From a virus, in IMG/VR virus record IMGVR_UViG_3300042516_004943, positions 1-64,000 of that record: 64,000 nucleotides of DNA; one strand, 5' to 3'. The position numbers and the translations under genes were made by a program. Below the pieces are notes generated by a model. That model did no database searches. It worked only from the letters and a program-made list of their open reading frames with translations, and was not told where the DNA came from. Below are positions 2,000 to 13,716 of this stretch, piece after piece; the stretch's first letter is position 1, and every line of letters starts with the position of its first letter.

Positions 2000-2074
2000 T
2001 AAAGCATTGAGTGTCAACCACTTACGCCTGGCCCCCAGGCCTGGTTGTGTAAGTGCTTGTTAATCAACTATTTA
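2000..2074. repeat. 75-bp tripartite element, copy 1
   Basis: TAAAGCATTGAGTGTCAACCACTTA + CGCCTGGCCCCCAGGCCTGGTTGTG + TAAGTGCTTGTTAATCAACTATTTA. Confidence 0.95.
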
Positions 2075-2094
2075 TACAATTTTTTAATCCATAT

Positions 2095-2134
2095 AAAAAG
2101 TGAGGGGTGAGGCCCACCACAAGCCCCACCCCTC
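2095..2134 (-). terminator. Intrinsic terminator after rIIB
   Basis: Minus strand GAGGGGTGGGGC-loop-GCCTCACCCCTC followed by ACTTTTT. Confidence 0.7.
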
Positions 2135-2151
2135 TGTCGCACCACCGACGA

Positions 2152-3024
2152 CTACCGCTTCCGCATGAAGCGGCCCTTCGCATCCCTCACATTATGGTAG
2201 TTGCAGTTTTTATTCGTGCAACCAGAATCTTCGTAAATGTCCTCGTAGTCCTCATCATCGTAGTCCTCATCGTAGGAAGTGAACTCCGTGTTGAGAGGCT
2301 TGCGATAGACCTGTTCAAAGTCCTTGACAACCTCGTAGCGAGCAGTCCGCAACTTCTGGCAGTCACAATCTTTCGGAACAGAAACAACATCCGAAGGATT
2401 GATCTTGACGATCACAAGGCGAGAGTTGCCGCCACCGAAAGTGCTGGCATACTCATGGCTACCAGCATGGAATCCATAAGAACAACCAACATCAGCATCG
2501 TCGCAGACTGCGTTGCGAGGCATTTCCAAGACCTCACCAACACCATTGTAGAACTTGCCGCTATGGTGATCCATGTAGTCCTCGCGCACACTCTTGTAGG
2601 CCAAGAAGTCGCCATCCTCGCAGATCGGAAGATGCTTGTGTTCAAGGAACGTATAAAGCTCCGACACAGCGCGACGAGAAGGATTCTCCATGAGTTTTTC
2701 AAGGAACCTTGCAAGCGGTTGGAACGGCAAGCCTTCGTCCATGAAGTCGAAGATGCGATCAACGACATAGTTGTGGACAGGTTCGCCATTGTAGTAGATT
2801 ACACCATCGGTAATCTCCACACCGCCGACATTATCGGCGTTGAACTTGCGGGTGATAGACTCCGACACATCGAACAGGGAGTCGAGCGTGTCAATGTCTC
2901 CAGTAGCGAGGCAAGTAATAGCCTCGGTGAAAGACGGATGATTACAAGTCATCGTCTTGGGAACTCCATCAATAACTGCGGTGATGGACTCGTCGGTTTT
3001 GATTAGTGCGTTTAGTGCTTTCAT
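2152..3024 (-). CDS. rIIB: rIIB-like protein
   Basis: ENPS...ELYTFL...LPICEDGDFLAYKSV...MPRNAV...CSYGFHAG...VKINPSDVVSVP...KLRTARYEVV are rIIB-family motifs. Confidence 0.9.
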   Translation of the reverse strand: MKALNALIKTDESITAVIDGVPKTMTCNHPSFTEAITCLATGDIDTLDSLFDVSESITRKFNADNVGGVEITDGVIYYNGEPVHNYVVDRIFDFMDEGLPFQPLARFLEKLMENPSRRAVSELYTFLEHKHLPICEDGDFLAYKSVREDYMDHHSGKFYNGVGEVLEMPRNAVCDDADVGCSYGFHAGSHEYASTFGGGNSRLVIVKINPSDVVSVPKDCDCQKLRTARYEVVKDFEQVYRKPLNTEFTSYDEDYDDEDYEDIYEDSGCTNKNCNYHNVRDAKGRFMRKR

Positions 3025-3065
3025 CGTTTATTAGATTACAGAGTTTTGAGGTTTGGGTCAAGCGA

Positions 3066-3287
3066 TTATTTTCTTTTGCAACCAGTAACACAGCGAATAA
3101 TTTTATTGTTAACAAAAGTAGTGTCGCGCAGCACTTTCATGTATTTACTGAAAATTTGCTTGCGGTTAAGTCCAGCGTCAATCATTAAATCCCAAAGTTG
3201 ACGATGCATACCACTTCCGTATTGGGAAACAGCAAAGTGCAAATCTTCATAGGCTCCAGCTGAATAGGTGTCTTTCTGTAGTTTCAT
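3066..3287 (-). CDS. hypothetical protein (leaderless)
   Basis: 73-aa ORF; TTGACA-17-TACCTT-6-ATG. Confidence 0.65.
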   Translation of the reverse strand: MKLQKDTYSAGAYEDLHFAVSQYGSGMHRQLWDLMIDAGLNRKQIFSKYMKVLRDTTFVNNKIIRCVTGCKRK

Positions 3288-3331
3288 ACATTCAAGGTAT
3301 CGCGTTTTGCGATAGGTGTCAAGTGTTTTTG

Positions 3332-3406
3332 TAAGTGCTTGAGCGCCAAATACTTACGCCTGGCGCCCAGCCCTGTATTTGTAACTGCCTGATTTCCAAA
3401 TAGATA
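3332..3406. repeat. 75-bp tripartite element, copy 2
   Basis: TAAGTGCTTGAGCGCCAAATACTTA + CGCCTGGCGCCCAGCCCTGTATTTG + TAACTGCCTGATTTCCAAATAGATA. Confidence 0.9.
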
Positions 3407-3479
3407 TGGGGCGGGTCGGATTCGAACCGACAACCAATCGATTATGAGCCGACTGCTCTGACCATTGAGCTACCACCCC
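3407..3479 (-). tRNA. tRNA with CAT anticodon, probably Ile2 (lysidine type) rather than Met
   Basis: GGGGTGGTAGCTCAATGGTCAGAGCAGTCGGCTCATAATCGATTGGTTGTCGGTTCGAATCCGACCCGCCCCA; CTCATAATCG anticodon arm resembles bacterial tRNA-Ile2; CCA not encoded. Confidence 0.9.
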
Positions 3480-3561
3480 GTAAAAAATGTTATTACTCCA
3501 TAAATAGCAAACGTCCAGACACAAATAGTGATAGGGAGAGCGACAAATAGCACGATAGGTT

Positions 3562-3807
3562 TCATAGCTCAAATTGAAGTTGCCGACTACCAGTTCCTTC
3601 GACTTCGTAATCTGCCACCCATTTGTCCTCGCCCTCAAACGATCTGGGAGACAATAACAATATAGCGTGTTCTTCGTAATCGTCATCCCAATACTTGCCA
3701 GTCCCATCTTCATGGTTGATAATTTCCCATGTTTCGGAATCATATTTTACATAATCACCAATGGTGAGCATCTCGCCATCATAATCAGCAGGAATGATTG
3801 TTTTCAT
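3562..3807 (-). CDS. hypothetical acidic protein
   Basis: 81-aa ORF, ATGA-coupled to the upstream gene. Confidence 0.7.
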   Translation of the reverse strand: MKTIIPADYDGEMLTIGDYVKYDSETWEIINHEDGTGKYWDDDYEEHAILLLSPRSFEGEDKWVADYEVEGTGSRQLQFEL

Positions 3808-12276: not shown

Positions 12277-12351
12277 TAAACTGTTGAATATCAGGCACTT
12301 ACGCCTGGGGGCCAGGCCCGGTTCTGTAAGTGCTTGATTTGCAACGCTTTA
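12277..12351. repeat. 75-bp tripartite element, copy 9
   Basis: TAAACTGTTGAATATCAGGCACTTA + CGCCTGGGGGCCAGGCCCGGTTCTG + TAAGTGCTTGATTTGCAACGCTTTA; spacer identical to copy 6. Confidence 0.95.
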
Positions 12352-12504
12352 CGTATCTTGCCAACCACGAAAAAACTTTGCTTTGCGCGCGAATTTTTTC
12401 TTGACACGCATGGCAAACGAGGGCTTGCAAGTTGTCTTGCGAACGCTGCGCTCGATTGCGCGAGCAAGCGGTCGCGTGTCGATTGTCATAATGATTCTGC
12501 TCAT
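12349..12504 (-). CDS. small basic protein (51 aa); stop codon is the terminal TAA of element copy 9
   Basis: Manual translation MSRIIMTIDTRPLARAIERSVRK...GWQDT. Confidence 0.5.
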   Translation of the reverse strand: MSRIIMTIDTRPLARAIERSVRKTTCKPSFAMRVKKKFARKAKFFRGWQDT

Positions 12505-12505
12505 G

Positions 12506-12736
12506 TTAGTTGACCCCAAAAGAGAATTGCTGATTTTTTACTGCGTTCAACTCTACCGCGAGCGTAGTCGAAACGCCACACAAGAGATTGAGTTTGTGCT
12601 CGTGCATGGTGATCGTGCGCAAAGCCTTCTCCAACATATCTTGAAGATGGTGGATGTGCGCCTCCTGCGCTTGGATTGTTTTCTCATGCTTGATGAGAGT
12701 TTCCAGCGATTTGATGATGCCGTCTTGTTGTGTCAT
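12506..12736 (-). CDS. coiled-coil hypothetical protein
   Basis: Likely start MTQQDGII. Confidence 0.6.
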   Translation of the reverse strand: MTQQDGIIKSLETLIKHEKTIQAQEAHIHHLQDMLEKALRTITMHEHKLNLLCGVSTTLAVELNAVKNQQFSFGVN

Positions 12737-12740
12737 AGTA

Positions 12741-12911
12741 TTAGTGTTTGGGTTTGGGTTTGGGTTCAGGACGAGCGCACGGATCGTTGCGGTGACGCTC
12801 CTCGGCATAGCCGAAAAGAATGTCAAATGCTTGTTCCGGCGTGATCCAATCGTCCTCTGGGAGGTCGAAGCGCCATTCAGTAGGCCATGCGCCTGTGGTG
12901 TTTTCTGTCAT
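12741..12911 (-). CDS. hypothetical protein
   Basis: Likely start MTENTTGAW; abuts neighbours. Confidence 0.5.
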   Translation of the reverse strand: MTENTTGAWPTEWRFDLPEDDWITPEQAFDILFGYAEERHRNDPCARPEPKPKPKH

Positions 12912-12915
12912 AAAA

Positions 12916-13125
12916 TTAATTGTCCCAACCTTCCTGTTCGCCCCAGTCCGCGAGATCGTCCATGCCCGACCCGTCACCGGGCCATTGACCCTCATACCCA
13001 TCATAGGGTTGCGGCTCCTGCTCGACGGCAGGCTCGGCAGCAAACGTGCCGCGCATAGCCTCATGTTCAGAGGCCATCTCGTCGGATTGCGGTTGTGTGT
13101 TGAAGTCGTCAGTGATGTTGTTCAT
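12916..13125 (-). CDS. small acidic protein, DDFNTQxQSDE family copy 2
   Basis: MNNITDDFNTQPQSDEMASEHEA...WPGDGSGMDDLAD; leaderless promoter. Confidence 0.75.
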   Translation of the reverse strand: MNNITDDFNTQPQSDEMASEHEAMRGTFAAEPAVEQEPQPYDGYEGQWPGDGSGMDDLADWGEQEGWDN

Positions 13126-13168
13126 GGTGTTAGGATATGGTGAGTTGAGGATTATTGCAAGCGTTTTT

Positions 13169-13519
13169 TTATGCGGCCAAAGCGGGACGCACACGGAACA
13201 CAAGCTCCAGCTTGCCAGCATCGGGGCGAGTCTCGCCAGCGAGGAAAGCGGCGAGCATCTTGCTGTCGAAGTTGAAGCGAGAGAGGGGGTGAGAGTTAGC
13301 CCAACGCAAGCCATCGGGCAAGCCAAGGTCGATGAGTTGCTCGACCTCTGCATCAGAGGGGCAGGAGTAAGGCGACCAGCCAAGGGTTGCGATAGTCTTG
13401 CCAGTCTCGACGCTGACGAGTTCGTGCCAGAGTTTCGTGCAGTCGCCATCGAAGTCCTCCGAGATGATGAGCGTGCAGAGGGTTCCGTTGACGTTGAATG
13501 TGGTGTCTTTATCTTTCAT
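13169..13519 (-). CDS. hypothetical protein
   Basis: Start MKDKDTT at 13519; TTGCTT-16-TATGCT-6-ATG. Confidence 0.7.
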   Translation of the reverse strand: MKDKDTTFNVNGTLCTLIISEDFDGDCTKLWHELVSVETGKTIATLGWSPYSCPSDAEVEQLIDLGLPDGLRWANSHPLSRFNFDSKMLAAFLAGETRPDAGKLELVFRVRPALAA

Positions 13520-13641
13520 GCTTATAGCATAACACAGCGCACCGAAAAAGCAAGAGATTTTTTTGCAATTGTGAAAGTTTTTTTTATATCTTTTTTCGCT
13601 TGACAGGCTGAGTTGGCACACTTCTTGAACAGCTGTTTGCA

Positions 13642-13716
13642 TAAGTCGTTGAATATGAGGCACTTACGCCCGGCGGCCAGGCGGCCCGCCGTAAGTGCTT
13701 GATTTAGAACAACTTA
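13642..13716. repeat. 75-bp tripartite element, copy 10 (sigma54-like box at 13613-13628)
   Basis: TAAGTCGTTGAATATGAGGCACTTA + CGCCCGGCGGCCAGGCGGCCCGCCG + TAAGTGCTTGATTTAGAACAACTTA. Confidence 0.95.

What the first reader, a model, noticed from the sequence alone, without database searches (positions are those of the whole stretch)
2000..13716. Ten rigid 75-bp palindrome-spacer-palindrome elements divide the early region into gene cassettes
Seen: copies start at 2000, 3332, 4287, 5326, 6633, 8339, 9272, 10844, 12277 and 13642, 933-1706 bp apart. Each is exactly 25+25+25 bp: TAAGTnnTTGAnnnnCAAnnACTTA-like palindrome, GC-rich spacer C(G/A)CCNGGnnnCCAGG..., second palindrome. Length never varies while sequence drifts. 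The inner arms (CACTTAC...GTAAGTG) are best conserved, so the whole element is also one long imperfect hairpin. Each copy lies between the end of one minus-strand gene block and the promoter of the next. Stop codons fall inside the right palindrome at copies 8, 9 and 10. Known analogies are integron attC sites, tyrosine-recombinase core sites and the promoter/stem-loop (PeSL) shuffling cassettes of T4-type phages, but this element lacks the attC GTTRRRY core. Inference: a phage cassette-shuffling system or an array of two-operator protein-binding sites. No recombinase is encoded in this window.
Basis: partly seen in the sequence, partly recalled or inferred. Interest (0 to 1): 0.95.

Follow-up and report, generated by a model that had tools for sequence, protein, structure and literature searches.

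The report
Twin IHF-like palindromes between phage cassettes
Ten rigid 75-bp DNA modules separate the early gene units of an uncultured lake phage; each is two palindromes that read like docking sites for the DNA-bending protein IHF around a GC-rich core, they most likely act as protein-bound boundary or upstream-promoter elements, and related phages gain, lose and reorder gene cassettes at them.

Summary
Ten 25+25+25-bp elements lie at the stated coordinates (0.05 expected by chance). More than 100 further copies occur in related ~170-kb freshwater phage contigs. In complete relatives they are confined to one GC-rich ~15-kb island of small genes.

The palindrome arms keep specific bases. They show no compensatory change and no strand-specific wobble, and they match the IHF consensus WATCAANNNNTTR. 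The GC core is genome-specific and is homogenised within each genome (concerted evolution).

Three complete relatives encode no tyrosine or serine recombinase, no HU/IHF, no sigma-54 and no enhancer-binding protein. Canonical terminators sit just before two of the elements, so the element is not simply a terminator.

Cassettes differ in order and content between relatives. Lake-metagenome contigs show joints at the elements, but also at the repeated promoters.

Best reading (about 0.45): paired sites for a host IHF-type bending protein form boundary/upstream-promoter modules. Their repetition makes them homologous-recombination points, like the PeSLs of T4-type phages. They are not integron-like sites.

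This scan reported the same family earlier in at least eight other phage genomes, with the same reading. I found no published description.

The parts
2000..2074 (.). Element 1, between rIIB (2152-3024, minus) and rIIA (..1978, minus)
   Evidence: nhmmer 67 bits
3332..3406 (.). Element 2; begins one base after the 3' end of tRNA-Met (3407-3479, minus)
4287..4361 (.). Element 3
5326..5400 (.). Element 4; its right palindrome is replaced by a different inverted repeat (CCCTCGTAA..TTACGAGGG), and this replacement is conserved in the positional orthologues of all relatives
6633..6707 (.). Element 5; its right palindrome overlaps the last 10 nt of tRNA-Cys (6698-6770, minus)
8339..8413 (.). Element 6, upstream (in gene sense) of the tRNA-Trp/Lys/Asp cluster
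9272..9346 (.). Element 7; a lake-metagenome contig switches partner at 9317/9318, the boundary between core and right palindrome
10844..10918 (.). Element 8; contains the stop codon of ORF 10908-11051; variant contigs join 10919 to 12384
12277..12351 (.). Element 9; its last three bases are the stop codon of ORF 12349-12519
13642..13716 (.). Element 10; its last three bases are the stop codon of ORF 13714-13932
5296..5325 (+). Optional 30-nt box TTGGCAC-N5-YTGMA (sigma54 -24/-12-like, pointing into element 4). The same box lies at 9242-9271, 10814-10843 and 13612-13641
   Evidence: at a fixed offset in 38 of 92 distinct copies across relatives
13526..13553 (-). Sigma70-like promoter after element 10 (TTGCTT-16-TATGCT); the ATG at 13519 starts 6 nt after the -10 hexamer (leaderless)
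12195..12222 (-). Promoter after element 9 (TTGCTT-16-TATAGT); ATG at 12188, 6 nt after the -10
10738..10765 (-). Promoter after element 8 (TTGCAT-16-TATCTT); ATG at 10731, 6 nt after the -10; an A/T-rich UP-like tract lies upstream
9166..9193 (-). Promoter after element 7 (TTGTGC-16-TATTCT); ATG at 9159
6585..6613 (-). Promoter after element 5 (TTGACT-17-TATTCT), with its -35 19 nt from the element; ATG at 6578
5229..5256 (-). Promoter after element 4 (TTGCGT-16-TATACT); ATG at 5220
4237..4265 (-). Promoter after element 3 (TTGACC-17-TATTGT), with its -35 21 nt from the element
3294..3322 (-). Promoter after element 2 (TTGACA-17-TACCTT), with its -35 9 nt from the element; ATG at 3287
1950..1978 (-). 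Promoter after element 1 (TTGCCA-17-TACTCT), driving rIIA
2102..2134 (-). Canonical intrinsic terminator (15-bp stem plus T-run) between the rIIB stop and element 1
4384..4417 (-). Canonical intrinsic terminator (15-bp stem plus T-run) between the stop of ORF 4432-5319 and element 3

Best explanation
Each 75-bp element is a DNA-level architectural site, not an RNA and not a recombinase site. It has two 25-bp palindromes, TAAGT-NN-TTGA-NNN-TCAA-NN-ACTTA. Each arm reads as the IHF consensus (W)ATCAA-N4-TTA. The invariant TT and AA steps are 9 bp apart. A stiff GC-rich core of fixed length separates the two palindromes.

Inferred mechanism: after injection, two dimers of a host IHF/HU-family (DNABII) bending protein load on each element. 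The resulting nucleoprotein marks the boundary between successive early transcription units. It starts at the stop codon or tRNA 3' end of one unit. It lies 9-88 nt upstream of the -35 of the next strong sigma70-type, mostly leaderless promoter. There it would insulate neighbouring units and/or shape the upstream DNA of the next promoter.

The element is part of a ~100-200-bp repeated module that also includes an optional TTGGCAC box, an A/T tract and the promoter. It is present 10-14 times in direct orientation. The copies therefore recombine with one another and with those of co-infecting relatives by ordinary homologous recombination and gene conversion. This deletes, inserts and reorders cassettes and homogenises the cores within a genome.

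Shown here: the anatomy, the distribution, the lack of RNA-type covariation, the consensus match, the absence of phage recombinase and HU/IHF genes, the rearrangements and the concerted evolution.

Inferred: which protein binds, and what binding does to transcription.
For: Geometry and chance.

Family and distribution:
- 111 distinct copies occur in relatives, with arms conserved while cores differ.
- In complete relatives the palindromes lie only at 17.6-32.4 kb of the 178-kb record G002, at 18.0-32.2 kb of G004 and at 0.3-15.7 kb of G003.
- Of the first 120 viral loci returned by an inner-arm pattern, 60 carry full paired elements. Core lengths are 15-29 bp, mostly 17, 23 or 25.

DNA site rather than RNA:
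- The variable NN/NNN positions are complementary less often than shuffled columns. Examples: 19 observed against 36 expected, and 11 against 38.
- There is no consistent G-T over A-C bias on either strand.
- The palindromes fold at only about -3 kcal/mol, and 25-nt cores fold no better than composition-shuffled cores, z = -0.44.
- Predicted folds differ from copy to copy.
- Canonical terminators with T-runs precede elements 1 and 3.

IHF match:
- The consensus WATCAANNNNTTR is found as written in the literature (e.g. PMC9452768, PMC10380432).
- 11 of its 21 matches in the 64-kb window lie in the 750 bp of elements.
- The inner arm next to the core matches the full consensus in 57 of 93 distinct copies, and matches TCAANNNNTTR in 75 of 93.

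Host factor: three complete relatives have no PF00216, PF00589 or PF00239.

Position: promoters follow 9 of 10 elements.

Recombination:
- Cassette maps.
- Adjacencies are broken in 27% of cases with an element against 16% without, odds ratio about 2.
- Contig joints run 10919 to 12384 (one cassette plus one element, seen in two runs) and 9318 to 4371 (inside element 7).

Concerted evolution: orthologous palindromes are 0.76-0.86 identical but orthologous cores only 0.57-0.64, against 0.71 among this phage's own copies. The dyad motif is CCTGG here, CCGGG in one relative and CCCCG in the others.
Against: - No binding data exist and the host is unknown, so it is not known that the host has IHF.
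- The IHF consensus carries little information (about 16 bits). A palindrome of TCAA..TTA could also be the operator of an unidentified phage protein.
- The distance from element to promoter varies (9-88 nt). Helical phasing is only suggestive: R = 0.46 on 42 partly orthologous copies, and the window's own distant copies do not phase.
- Half of the elements are anchored to the upstream stop codon or tRNA end rather than to the promoter. That would also suit a 3'-end RNA signal.
- The 17-nt cores of distant relatives are clear GC hairpins with different stem sequences in different genomes (z = -1.33). A structural role for the core, as RNA or cruciform, is therefore not excluded.
- Many promoters in the region work without an element.
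Confidence: 0.45

Rival explanations
1. Operators for a phage-encoded regulator. An unrecognised dimeric phage protein, for example an early-gene shut-off repressor or an activator, binds the two palindromes cooperatively across the GC core and switches the neighbouring promoters. The likeness to the IHF consensus would be accidental.
For: The same DNA-level evidence as for the best explanation. The spacing is rigid. The arms are conserved across phages whose rIIB is only 33-67% identical, as expected if the factor travels with the phage. Most cassette proteins are ORFans with no Pfam or PHROG match, so a novel DNA-binding fold could be hidden among them.
Against: No HTH, RHH or other DNA-binding family turned up among 20 cassette proteins. 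All strongly conserved arm positions except A21/C22 coincide with the conserved positions of the IHF consensus, including the 9-bp TT/AA spacing. Elements sit at very different distances from promoters.
Confidence: 0.2
2. RNA 3'-end signal. Transcribed on the gene strand, the element folds (ACUUAC-GC core-GUAAGU, extended by the arms). It then acts as a U-tract-less terminator, a 3'-exonuclease barrier or an RNase III processing site between early messages and tRNAs, as in the T7 early region.
For: The element starts at the stop codon or exactly at the tRNA 3' end in half of the copies. Whole-element folds reach -22 to -36 kcal/mol, z from -1.4 to -4.6. Core sequences differ between genomes yet stay GC-rich and self-complementary, most clearly the 17-nt cores.
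Against: There is no covariation, and complementarity is even avoided at the variable stem positions. There is no strand-specific wobble bias. Core folding is no better than for shuffled cores of the same composition. There is no U-tract, and separate canonical terminators stand directly upstream of elements 1 and 3. The arms are conserved base by base, which an RNA stem does not need. No Rfam family matched.
Confidence: 0.2
3. Dedicated site-specific cassette-exchange system (integron-like). The elements are recombination sites cut in the core by a specialised enzyme, which excises and reinserts cassettes as circles.
For: Cassette-level gain, loss and transposition. A joint lies at the core/palindrome boundary of element 7. 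Concerted evolution is centred on the core. Palindrome-core-palindrome is the layout of many recombinase sites.
Against: There is no tyrosine or serine recombinase in the contig or in three complete relatives. Cassettes carry their own promoters. Joints also occur between promoter repeats and elsewhere. The enrichment of breaks at elements is only about two-fold. Core sequence and length vary between genomes.
Confidence: 0.07
4. Start of an antisense transcript. The TTGGCACG-N4-YTGM box next to about 40% of copies is a sigma54-type promoter that fires into the element. It would make a structured antisense RNA against the 3' end of the preceding cassette.
For: The box matches the -24/-12 consensus in sequence and spacing. 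It lies at one fixed offset, so the predicted start falls 2 nt before the element.
Against: It is present at only 38 of 92 distinct copies. The -12 position is A rather than C in 29 of 40. No sigma54 or enhancer-binding protein is found in the phage genomes. The only hit was a RuvB-like AAA+ protein. No RNA data were available.
Confidence: 0.05
5. Mobile MITE-like element that inserts at TAA/TTA.
For: Terminal inverted repeats TAAGT..ACTTA. The size and palindromic build resemble Correia or REP-like repeats.
Against: The copies are positional orthologues across diverged genomes. They are confined to one 15-kb island. No transposase was seen, and no target duplications.
Confidence: 0.03

Closest known systems
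PeSL (promoter-early stem-loop) elements of T4-type phages (Arbiol et al. 2010, PMC2839356; Comeau et al. 2014, PMC4122927)
   Same: Both are composite repeated intergenic modules: a structure at the end of one unit, an A/T-rich tract, a sigma70-like early promoter and a start codon. Both cluster in a region of small ORFan early genes and sit next to insertions, deletions, replacements and displacements between close relatives. In both cases recombination between copies is the proposed cause (for the definition; here).
   Different: A PeSL has a short, variable stem-loop. Here there is a rigid 75-bp tripartite element with base-specific palindromes conserved across distant phages and a genome-specific GC core. 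The mRNAs are leaderless (no Shine-Dalgarno sequence). The phage shows no sign of being a T4-type myovirus. Minicircles have not been shown.
IHF binding sites and IHF-assisted promoters (consensus WATCAANNNNTTR)
   Same: The arm sequence (W)ATCAA-N4-TTA, the invariant A/T steps 9 bp apart and the placement upstream of promoters.
   Different: Classical sites are asymmetric single sites for a heterodimer. Here both halves of a palindrome carry the consensus, two such palindromes are paired at a fixed 50-bp spacing, and the pair is repeated 10-14 times. Binding is untested.
BIME-1 / RIP elements of enterobacteria (REP stem-loops plus an IHF site, at 3' ends of operons; from my own knowledge, with reviews listed)
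   Same: A GC-rich palindromic unit is combined with IHF-type sites. They are repeated at the ends of transcription units and are known recombination and rearrangement points.
   Different: The layout is inverted: BIME-1 has two REPs around one IHF site, whereas here two IHF-like palindromes surround one GC core. BIME-1 is chromosomal, with hundreds of dispersed copies and RAYT transposases. Here there is a phage-borne ordered array.
Integron attC sites
   Same: Imperfect inverted repeats that bound gene cassettes in an ordered array.
   Different: There is no integrase. Cassettes have their own promoters. Length is fixed and the arms are sequence-specific instead of structure-specific. There is no conserved GTTRRRY.
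RNase III sites of the T7 early region
   Same: About ten conserved hairpin-capable elements between early genes.
   Different: The T7 sites lie within one polycistronic RNA without internal promoters and are structure-defined. Here each unit has its own promoter and the stems show no covariation.

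Membership tests
Integron attC / integron platform | An IntI tyrosine recombinase encoded beside the array | tested here: not met
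   PF00589 is absent from the contig and from three complete relatives, while all 14 control genomes were positive. PF00239 is also absent.
Integron attC / integron platform | Conserved R''/R' core sites (RYYYAAC / GTTRRRY) | tested here: not met
   GTTRRRY is present in only 3 of 10 left palindromes, and only where variable bases happen to fit (sequences listed).
Integron attC / integron platform | Promoterless cassettes expressed from a common Pc; attC conserved in structure, variable in sequence and length | tested here: not met
   Nine of ten cassettes have their own sigma70-like promoter. Length is rigid and the arms are base-specific without covariation.
PeSL (T4-type phages) | Stem-loop, A/T-rich tract, sigma70-like early promoter, Shine-Dalgarno sequence and start codon in one repeated module | tested here: inconclusive
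   The element, A/T tract, promoter and ATG are present. However, there is no Shine-Dalgarno sequence (the ATG starts 6 nt after the -10), and the 'stem-loop' is a 75-bp double palindrome without RNA-type support.
PeSL (T4-type phages) | Located in hyperplastic regions of small variable genes and adjacent to indels or exchanges between close relatives | tested here: met
   Mostly ORFan small genes. Cassette gain, loss and reordering between elements. Odds ratio about 2 for breaks at elements. Joints in metagenome contigs.
PeSL (T4-type phages) | Minicircles formed by recombination between two copies | not testable with these tools
   Only assembled contigs were available. 'Goes back' joints (14815 to 10813, 14836 to 10953) fit circles or duplications but cannot tell them apart.
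PeSL (T4-type phages) | The carrier is a T4-type myovirus | tested here: inconclusive
   rIIA and rIIB are present. But ten large proteins gave no T4-type structural PHROG, and the terminase is about 22% identical to those of Bacillus phages.
IHF binding site | Match to WATCAANNNNTTR | tested here: met
   11 exact matches lie in the 10 elements, against 10 in the other 63 kb. The inner arm matches in 57 of 93 distinct copies. The consensus was confirmed in the literature.
IHF binding site | Specific binding and sharp bending by IHF | not testable with these tools
   This needs EMSA, footprinting or circular-permutation assays.
IHF binding site | A source of the protein (host or phage gene) | tested here: inconclusive
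   No PF00216 gene is found in the phage genomes. The host is unknown (lake water).
Intrinsic (Rho-independent) terminator | GC-rich hairpin directly followed by a U-tract on the transcribed strand | tested here: not met
   The terminator scan calls none of the elements on the gene strand. Its two strong minus-strand calls are separate hairpins just upstream of elements 1 and 3.
RNase III processing site (T7-type) | A conserved extended hairpin maintained by compensatory change | tested here: not met
   Folds differ among copies. Variable positions avoid complementarity. There is no wobble bias.
REP/BIME-1 (RIP) | Two inverted REP stem-loops flanking a central IHF site; dispersed chromosomal copies | tested here: not met
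   The order is reversed (IHF-like, GC core, IHF-like). The copies form one ordered array in a phage.

The most novel reading that the evidence does not exclude
The elements are the cis-sites of a recombinase-independent, phage-borne cassette-exchange platform. Two IHF-type bends flank the GC core and make it a preferred initiation point for breaks or strand exchange, for example by a structure-specific nuclease or the phage's own recombination proteins. Cassettes would then be swapped, and cores converted, at a rate far above that of ordinary repeats. The GC-rich composition of the whole island would be a footprint of that conversion.
Probability: 0.12. Interest if true: 0.85.

Novelty: new variant of a known kind. 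Interest (0 to 1): 0.6.

Why it matters
If the reading holds, a large group of uncultured aquatic phages organises its host-takeover genes with a fixed, reusable DNA part. That part borrows a host bending protein to delimit transcription units, and it also serves as the joint at which new genes are plugged in or lost.

This would give three things:
- a concrete, testable rule for how early regions of large phages are wired;
- a marker for finding early and accessory gene islands in metagenomic phage contigs;
- a natural example of a 'standard connector' for gene cassettes that needs no dedicated recombinase.

The genome-specific, homogenised core offers a direct way to measure gene conversion between dispersed repeats in phage populations.

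Tried and rejected
- Megablast of 1-14000 against 50,697 phage records gave no match.
- A strict core pattern against IMG/VR gave only one hit, inside a coding region of an unrelated high-GC phage, which I took for chance. The relatives were then found through proteins.
- Rfam at gathering score found only tRNAs.
- No RNA holder was listed among the public runs, and all runs are assembled contigs. Transcript ends, strands and circles could therefore not be read.
- I tested whether the upstream palindrome travels with the upstream gene and the downstream palindrome with the downstream cassette. This gave only a weak, blurred signal, probably because of crude ORF families.
- Helical phasing between element and -35 is suggestive over all relatives but not within the window. 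I treat it as inconclusive.
- Core hairpin z-scores against composition-shuffled cores are not significant for 25-nt cores.
- The PF00158 (sigma54 activator) hits turned out to be a RuvB-like AAA+ protein. PF04552, PF00216 and PF00145 were absent.
The clusters in Terriglobia and Orbaceae are unrelated long inverted repeats that share only the inner arm, so they give no host clue.
- Two scripts returned no answer and were rerun.

Full report
SETTING. The window is the first 64 kb of a 73.8-kb IMG/VR viral contig that is judged 49% complete. Near-identical DNA occurs in lake, river and plankton metagenomes of 19 studies. Complete relatives are 166-178 kb, and two have direct terminal repeats. 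No cultured phage is close. Megablast finds nothing, and the terminase is about 22% identical to those of Bacillus phages.

OBSERVATION. Repeat finding, alignment and a pattern scan confirm ten copies at the stated starts, each exactly 25+25+25 bp. The core pattern matches 13 times, against 0.05 expected.

The genes are on the minus strand: rIIA at 2-1978, rIIB at 2152-3024 and a GP88/phrog_1617 protein at 9593-10270. Read in gene sense, each element begins at or near the end of a unit:
- The stop codons of the ORFs ending at 10908, 12349 and 13714 lie in the element.
- tRNA-Met ends one base before element 2.
- tRNA-Cys overlaps element 5 by 10 nt.

In nine of ten cases a sigma70-like promoter follows, with its -35 lying 9-88 nt from the element. 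The ATG usually starts 6 nt after the -10 hexamer, so the mRNAs are leaderless. Between element and promoter lie an A/T-rich tract and, at four copies, a 30-nt box TTGGCAC-N5-YTGMA.

FAMILY. A profile of the ten copies finds 111 distinct flanked copies in related IMG/VR loci: 95 of 75 bp, 15 of 67 bp and one of 76 bp. The shorter and longer versions differ only in the core.

In complete relatives the palindrome occurs only in one stretch of about 15 kb. This is 17.6-32.4 kb in G002, 18.0-32.2 kb in G004 and 0.3-15.7 kb in G003, with 10-14 elements per genome. That stretch has 45-53% G+C in every genome, against about 25-38% beside it.

Sixty of them carry complete paired elements and 33 carry three or more. 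Core lengths are 15-29 bp, mostly 17, 23 or 25.

DNA SITE OR RNA STRUCTURE? I examined 102 distinct 75-mers.
- The nearly invariant positions are A2, A3, T9, A17, T23 and T24 of each palindrome.
- The variable NN and NNN positions do not covary. They are complementary less often than shuffled columns, both within a palindrome (19 against 36 expected; 14 against 33) and across the 'long hairpin' (11 against 38).
- Non-Watson-Crick pairs show no consistent G-T over A-C bias on either strand.
- The palindromes alone fold at about -3 kcal/mol.
- The central part folds no better than the same arms with a composition-shuffled core. The z-score is -0.44 for 25-nt cores and -1.33 for 17-nt cores.
- Whole-element folds are stable but differ from copy to copy.
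- No element is followed by a U-tract. Two textbook terminators (15-bp stems with T-runs) stand between the stop codon and elements 1 and 3.

These results argue that the arms are read as double-stranded DNA by a protein, and that the element is not simply the terminator. A structural role for the core is not excluded. The 17-nt cores of distant relatives are clear GC hairpins with different stem sequences in different genomes.

WHICH PROTEIN? The arm TCAA-NN-AC-TTA, usually preceded by (W)A, is the IHF consensus WATCAANNNNTTR. The consensus string is confirmed in 24 papers.
- Eleven of its 21 matches in the window fall in the 750 bp of elements.
- Across relatives, the arm next to the core matches the full consensus in 57 of 93 distinct copies and matches TCAANNNNTTR in 75 of 93.
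- The invariant TT (8-9) and AA (17-18) steps are 9 bp apart. From my own knowledge of the IHF-DNA structure, this is the spacing of the two kinks made by DNABII proteins.
- Both halves of each palindrome carry the consensus. That would suit a homodimeric IHF/HU-type protein, or binding in either orientation.

The phage genomes encode no HU/IHF, so a host protein is implied. Twenty cassette proteins show no recognisable DNA-binding domain. Most are ORFans, however, so a phage factor cannot be ruled out.

RECOMBINATION. There is no tyrosine or serine recombinase in the contig or in three complete relatives.

Cassette maps of ten genomes show a conserved half (tCys | 22.. | 25 | 27 28 tMet | 29 rIIB | rIIA) and a plastic half. 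In the plastic half, whole element-bounded units change order: [6 7 8] and [..11 12 13] are swapped between genomes. Single-gene units (families 75, 76, 115, 142, 64) are present, absent or displaced.

Adjacencies that span an element are broken in 27% of genome pairs, against 16% for others. The odds ratio is about 2. The p value of 3e-5 is inflated because the pairs are not independent.

Contigs from four independent lake or river runs show three kinds of joint:
- A joint from 10919, the base after element 8, to 12384, just past element 9. One cassette plus one element is missing, and this is seen in two runs.
- A joint from 9318, the core/palindrome boundary of element 7, to just after element 3, through a different right palindrome.
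- Several joints between promoter repeats: 11973 to 12185, 11998 to 14547 and 14585 to 14749.

Breaks are therefore enriched at the elements but also use the other repeated part of the module. Homologous recombination between repeats predicts this pattern, and it was proposed for PeSLs.

CONCERTED EVOLUTION. Between this phage and its relatives, positionally orthologous palindromes are 0.76-0.86 identical. Orthologous cores are only 0.57-0.64 identical, no better than non-orthologues. The ten cores of this phage are 0.71 identical to each other.

The motif at the exact dyad is CCTGG (gene strand) in all ten copies here, CCGGG in contig c4638 and CCCCG in the others. A river-run contig that is at least 90% like the window in the flank carries the relatives' core type at elements 8 and 9 (loose ends). 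The cores are thus exchanged or converted quickly, which fits frequent inter-copy recombination.

COMPARISON WITH KNOWN SYSTEMS.
- In function and evolution the whole module behaves like a PeSL. It differs in the elaborate, base-specific double palindrome, the leaderless starts and a carrier phage that does not look T4-like.
- In sequence the arms fit IHF sites.
- The combination of a GC palindrome with IHF sites at operon ends recalls BIME-1/RIP, but in reversed order.
- It fails the tested defining features of attC sites, intrinsic terminators and T7-type RNase III sites (see the membership table).
- I found no paper describing this element. The search was limited.

EARLIER NOTES OF THIS SCAN. 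One search shows that follow-up agents reported the same family in at least eight other uncultured phage genomes, with 67-79-bp versions. They reached the same IHF-type and PeSL-like reading. I reached the IHF match before reading them.

VERDICT.

Confidences:
- host DNABII-bound boundary/promoter module that doubles as a homologous-recombination joint: 0.45;
- phage-encoded regulator: 0.2;
- RNA 3'-end signal: 0.2;
- dedicated site-specific exchange: 0.07;
- other readings: less.

Noticed in passing
window 1-14800; relatives L076-L080: The whole element-bearing region is a GC-rich island (45-53% G+C) in a genome of about 33% G+C. The same contrast holds in every relative examined. The cause is unknown. 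Host-like codon usage for early genes or GC-biased gene conversion are possibilities.
   Followed up: partly
window 1-14800: CCWGG occurs 14 times, all inside the elements and always at the exact dyad. It occurs 0 times in the other ~12-14 kb, where 9-14 are expected. Relatives also avoid CCWGG in their islands (0-2 observed against 5-18 expected), but their elements mostly lack it. One relative instead carries CCSGG in every core. No C5-methylase gene was found.
   Followed up: yes
5296-5325, 9242-9271, 10814-10843, 13612-13641 (+ strand): A box TTGGCACG-N4-YTGM(A), very like a sigma54 -24/-12 promoter, points into the element at one fixed offset. It is present at 38 of 92 distinct copies in relatives. 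No phage sigma54 or enhancer-binding protein was found.
   Followed up: partly
minus-strand starts at 13519, 12188, 10731, 9159, 6578, 3287 and others (14334, 14550, 14770, 11978, 7794): Strong sigma70-like promoters with A/T-rich upstream tracts are followed by an ATG 6 nt after the -10 hexamer. Most early messages should therefore be leaderless.
   Followed up: partly
9083-9145 and 13058-13120; ORF family '14': The first gene of several cassettes shares a conserved N-terminal coding stretch (79% DNA identity between two copies). The repeated module thus reaches into the coding region.
   Followed up: no
3407-3479, 6698-6770, 7848-8079: Five tRNA genes (Met, Cys, Asp, Lys, Trp) lie inside the early array. 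Two of them end exactly at or inside an element, and this arrangement is conserved in all relatives. tRNA content and order differ between relatives.
   Followed up: partly
L082:10436-11374 (relative G002): A 312-aa RuvB-like AAA+ protein (RuvB_N and RuvB_C domains) is encoded about 7 kb from the array in complete relatives. It is a possible phage recombination function.
   Followed up: partly
L084, L087, L091 etc. (Terriglobia MAGs); L098, L116, L135, L143 (Orbaceae chromosome): Unrelated bacterial repeat families (long inverted repeats, MITE-like) contain the same inner-arm pair AATCAACAACTTA..TAAGTTGTTGATT around an 18-19-nt spacer.
   Followed up: partly
L086 (1.2-kb contig binned in an Alphaproteobacteria MAG): This short contig carries a typical element of this phage clade, with the relatives' core. 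It is probably a mis-binned phage fragment and is not usable as host evidence.
   Followed up: no
window 7667-8109, 3039-3294, 11973-12185: Lake-metagenome variants differ from the window by precise loss or replacement of single small genes and of tRNA genes. The joints fall at start codons, promoters and tRNA ends.
   Followed up: partly
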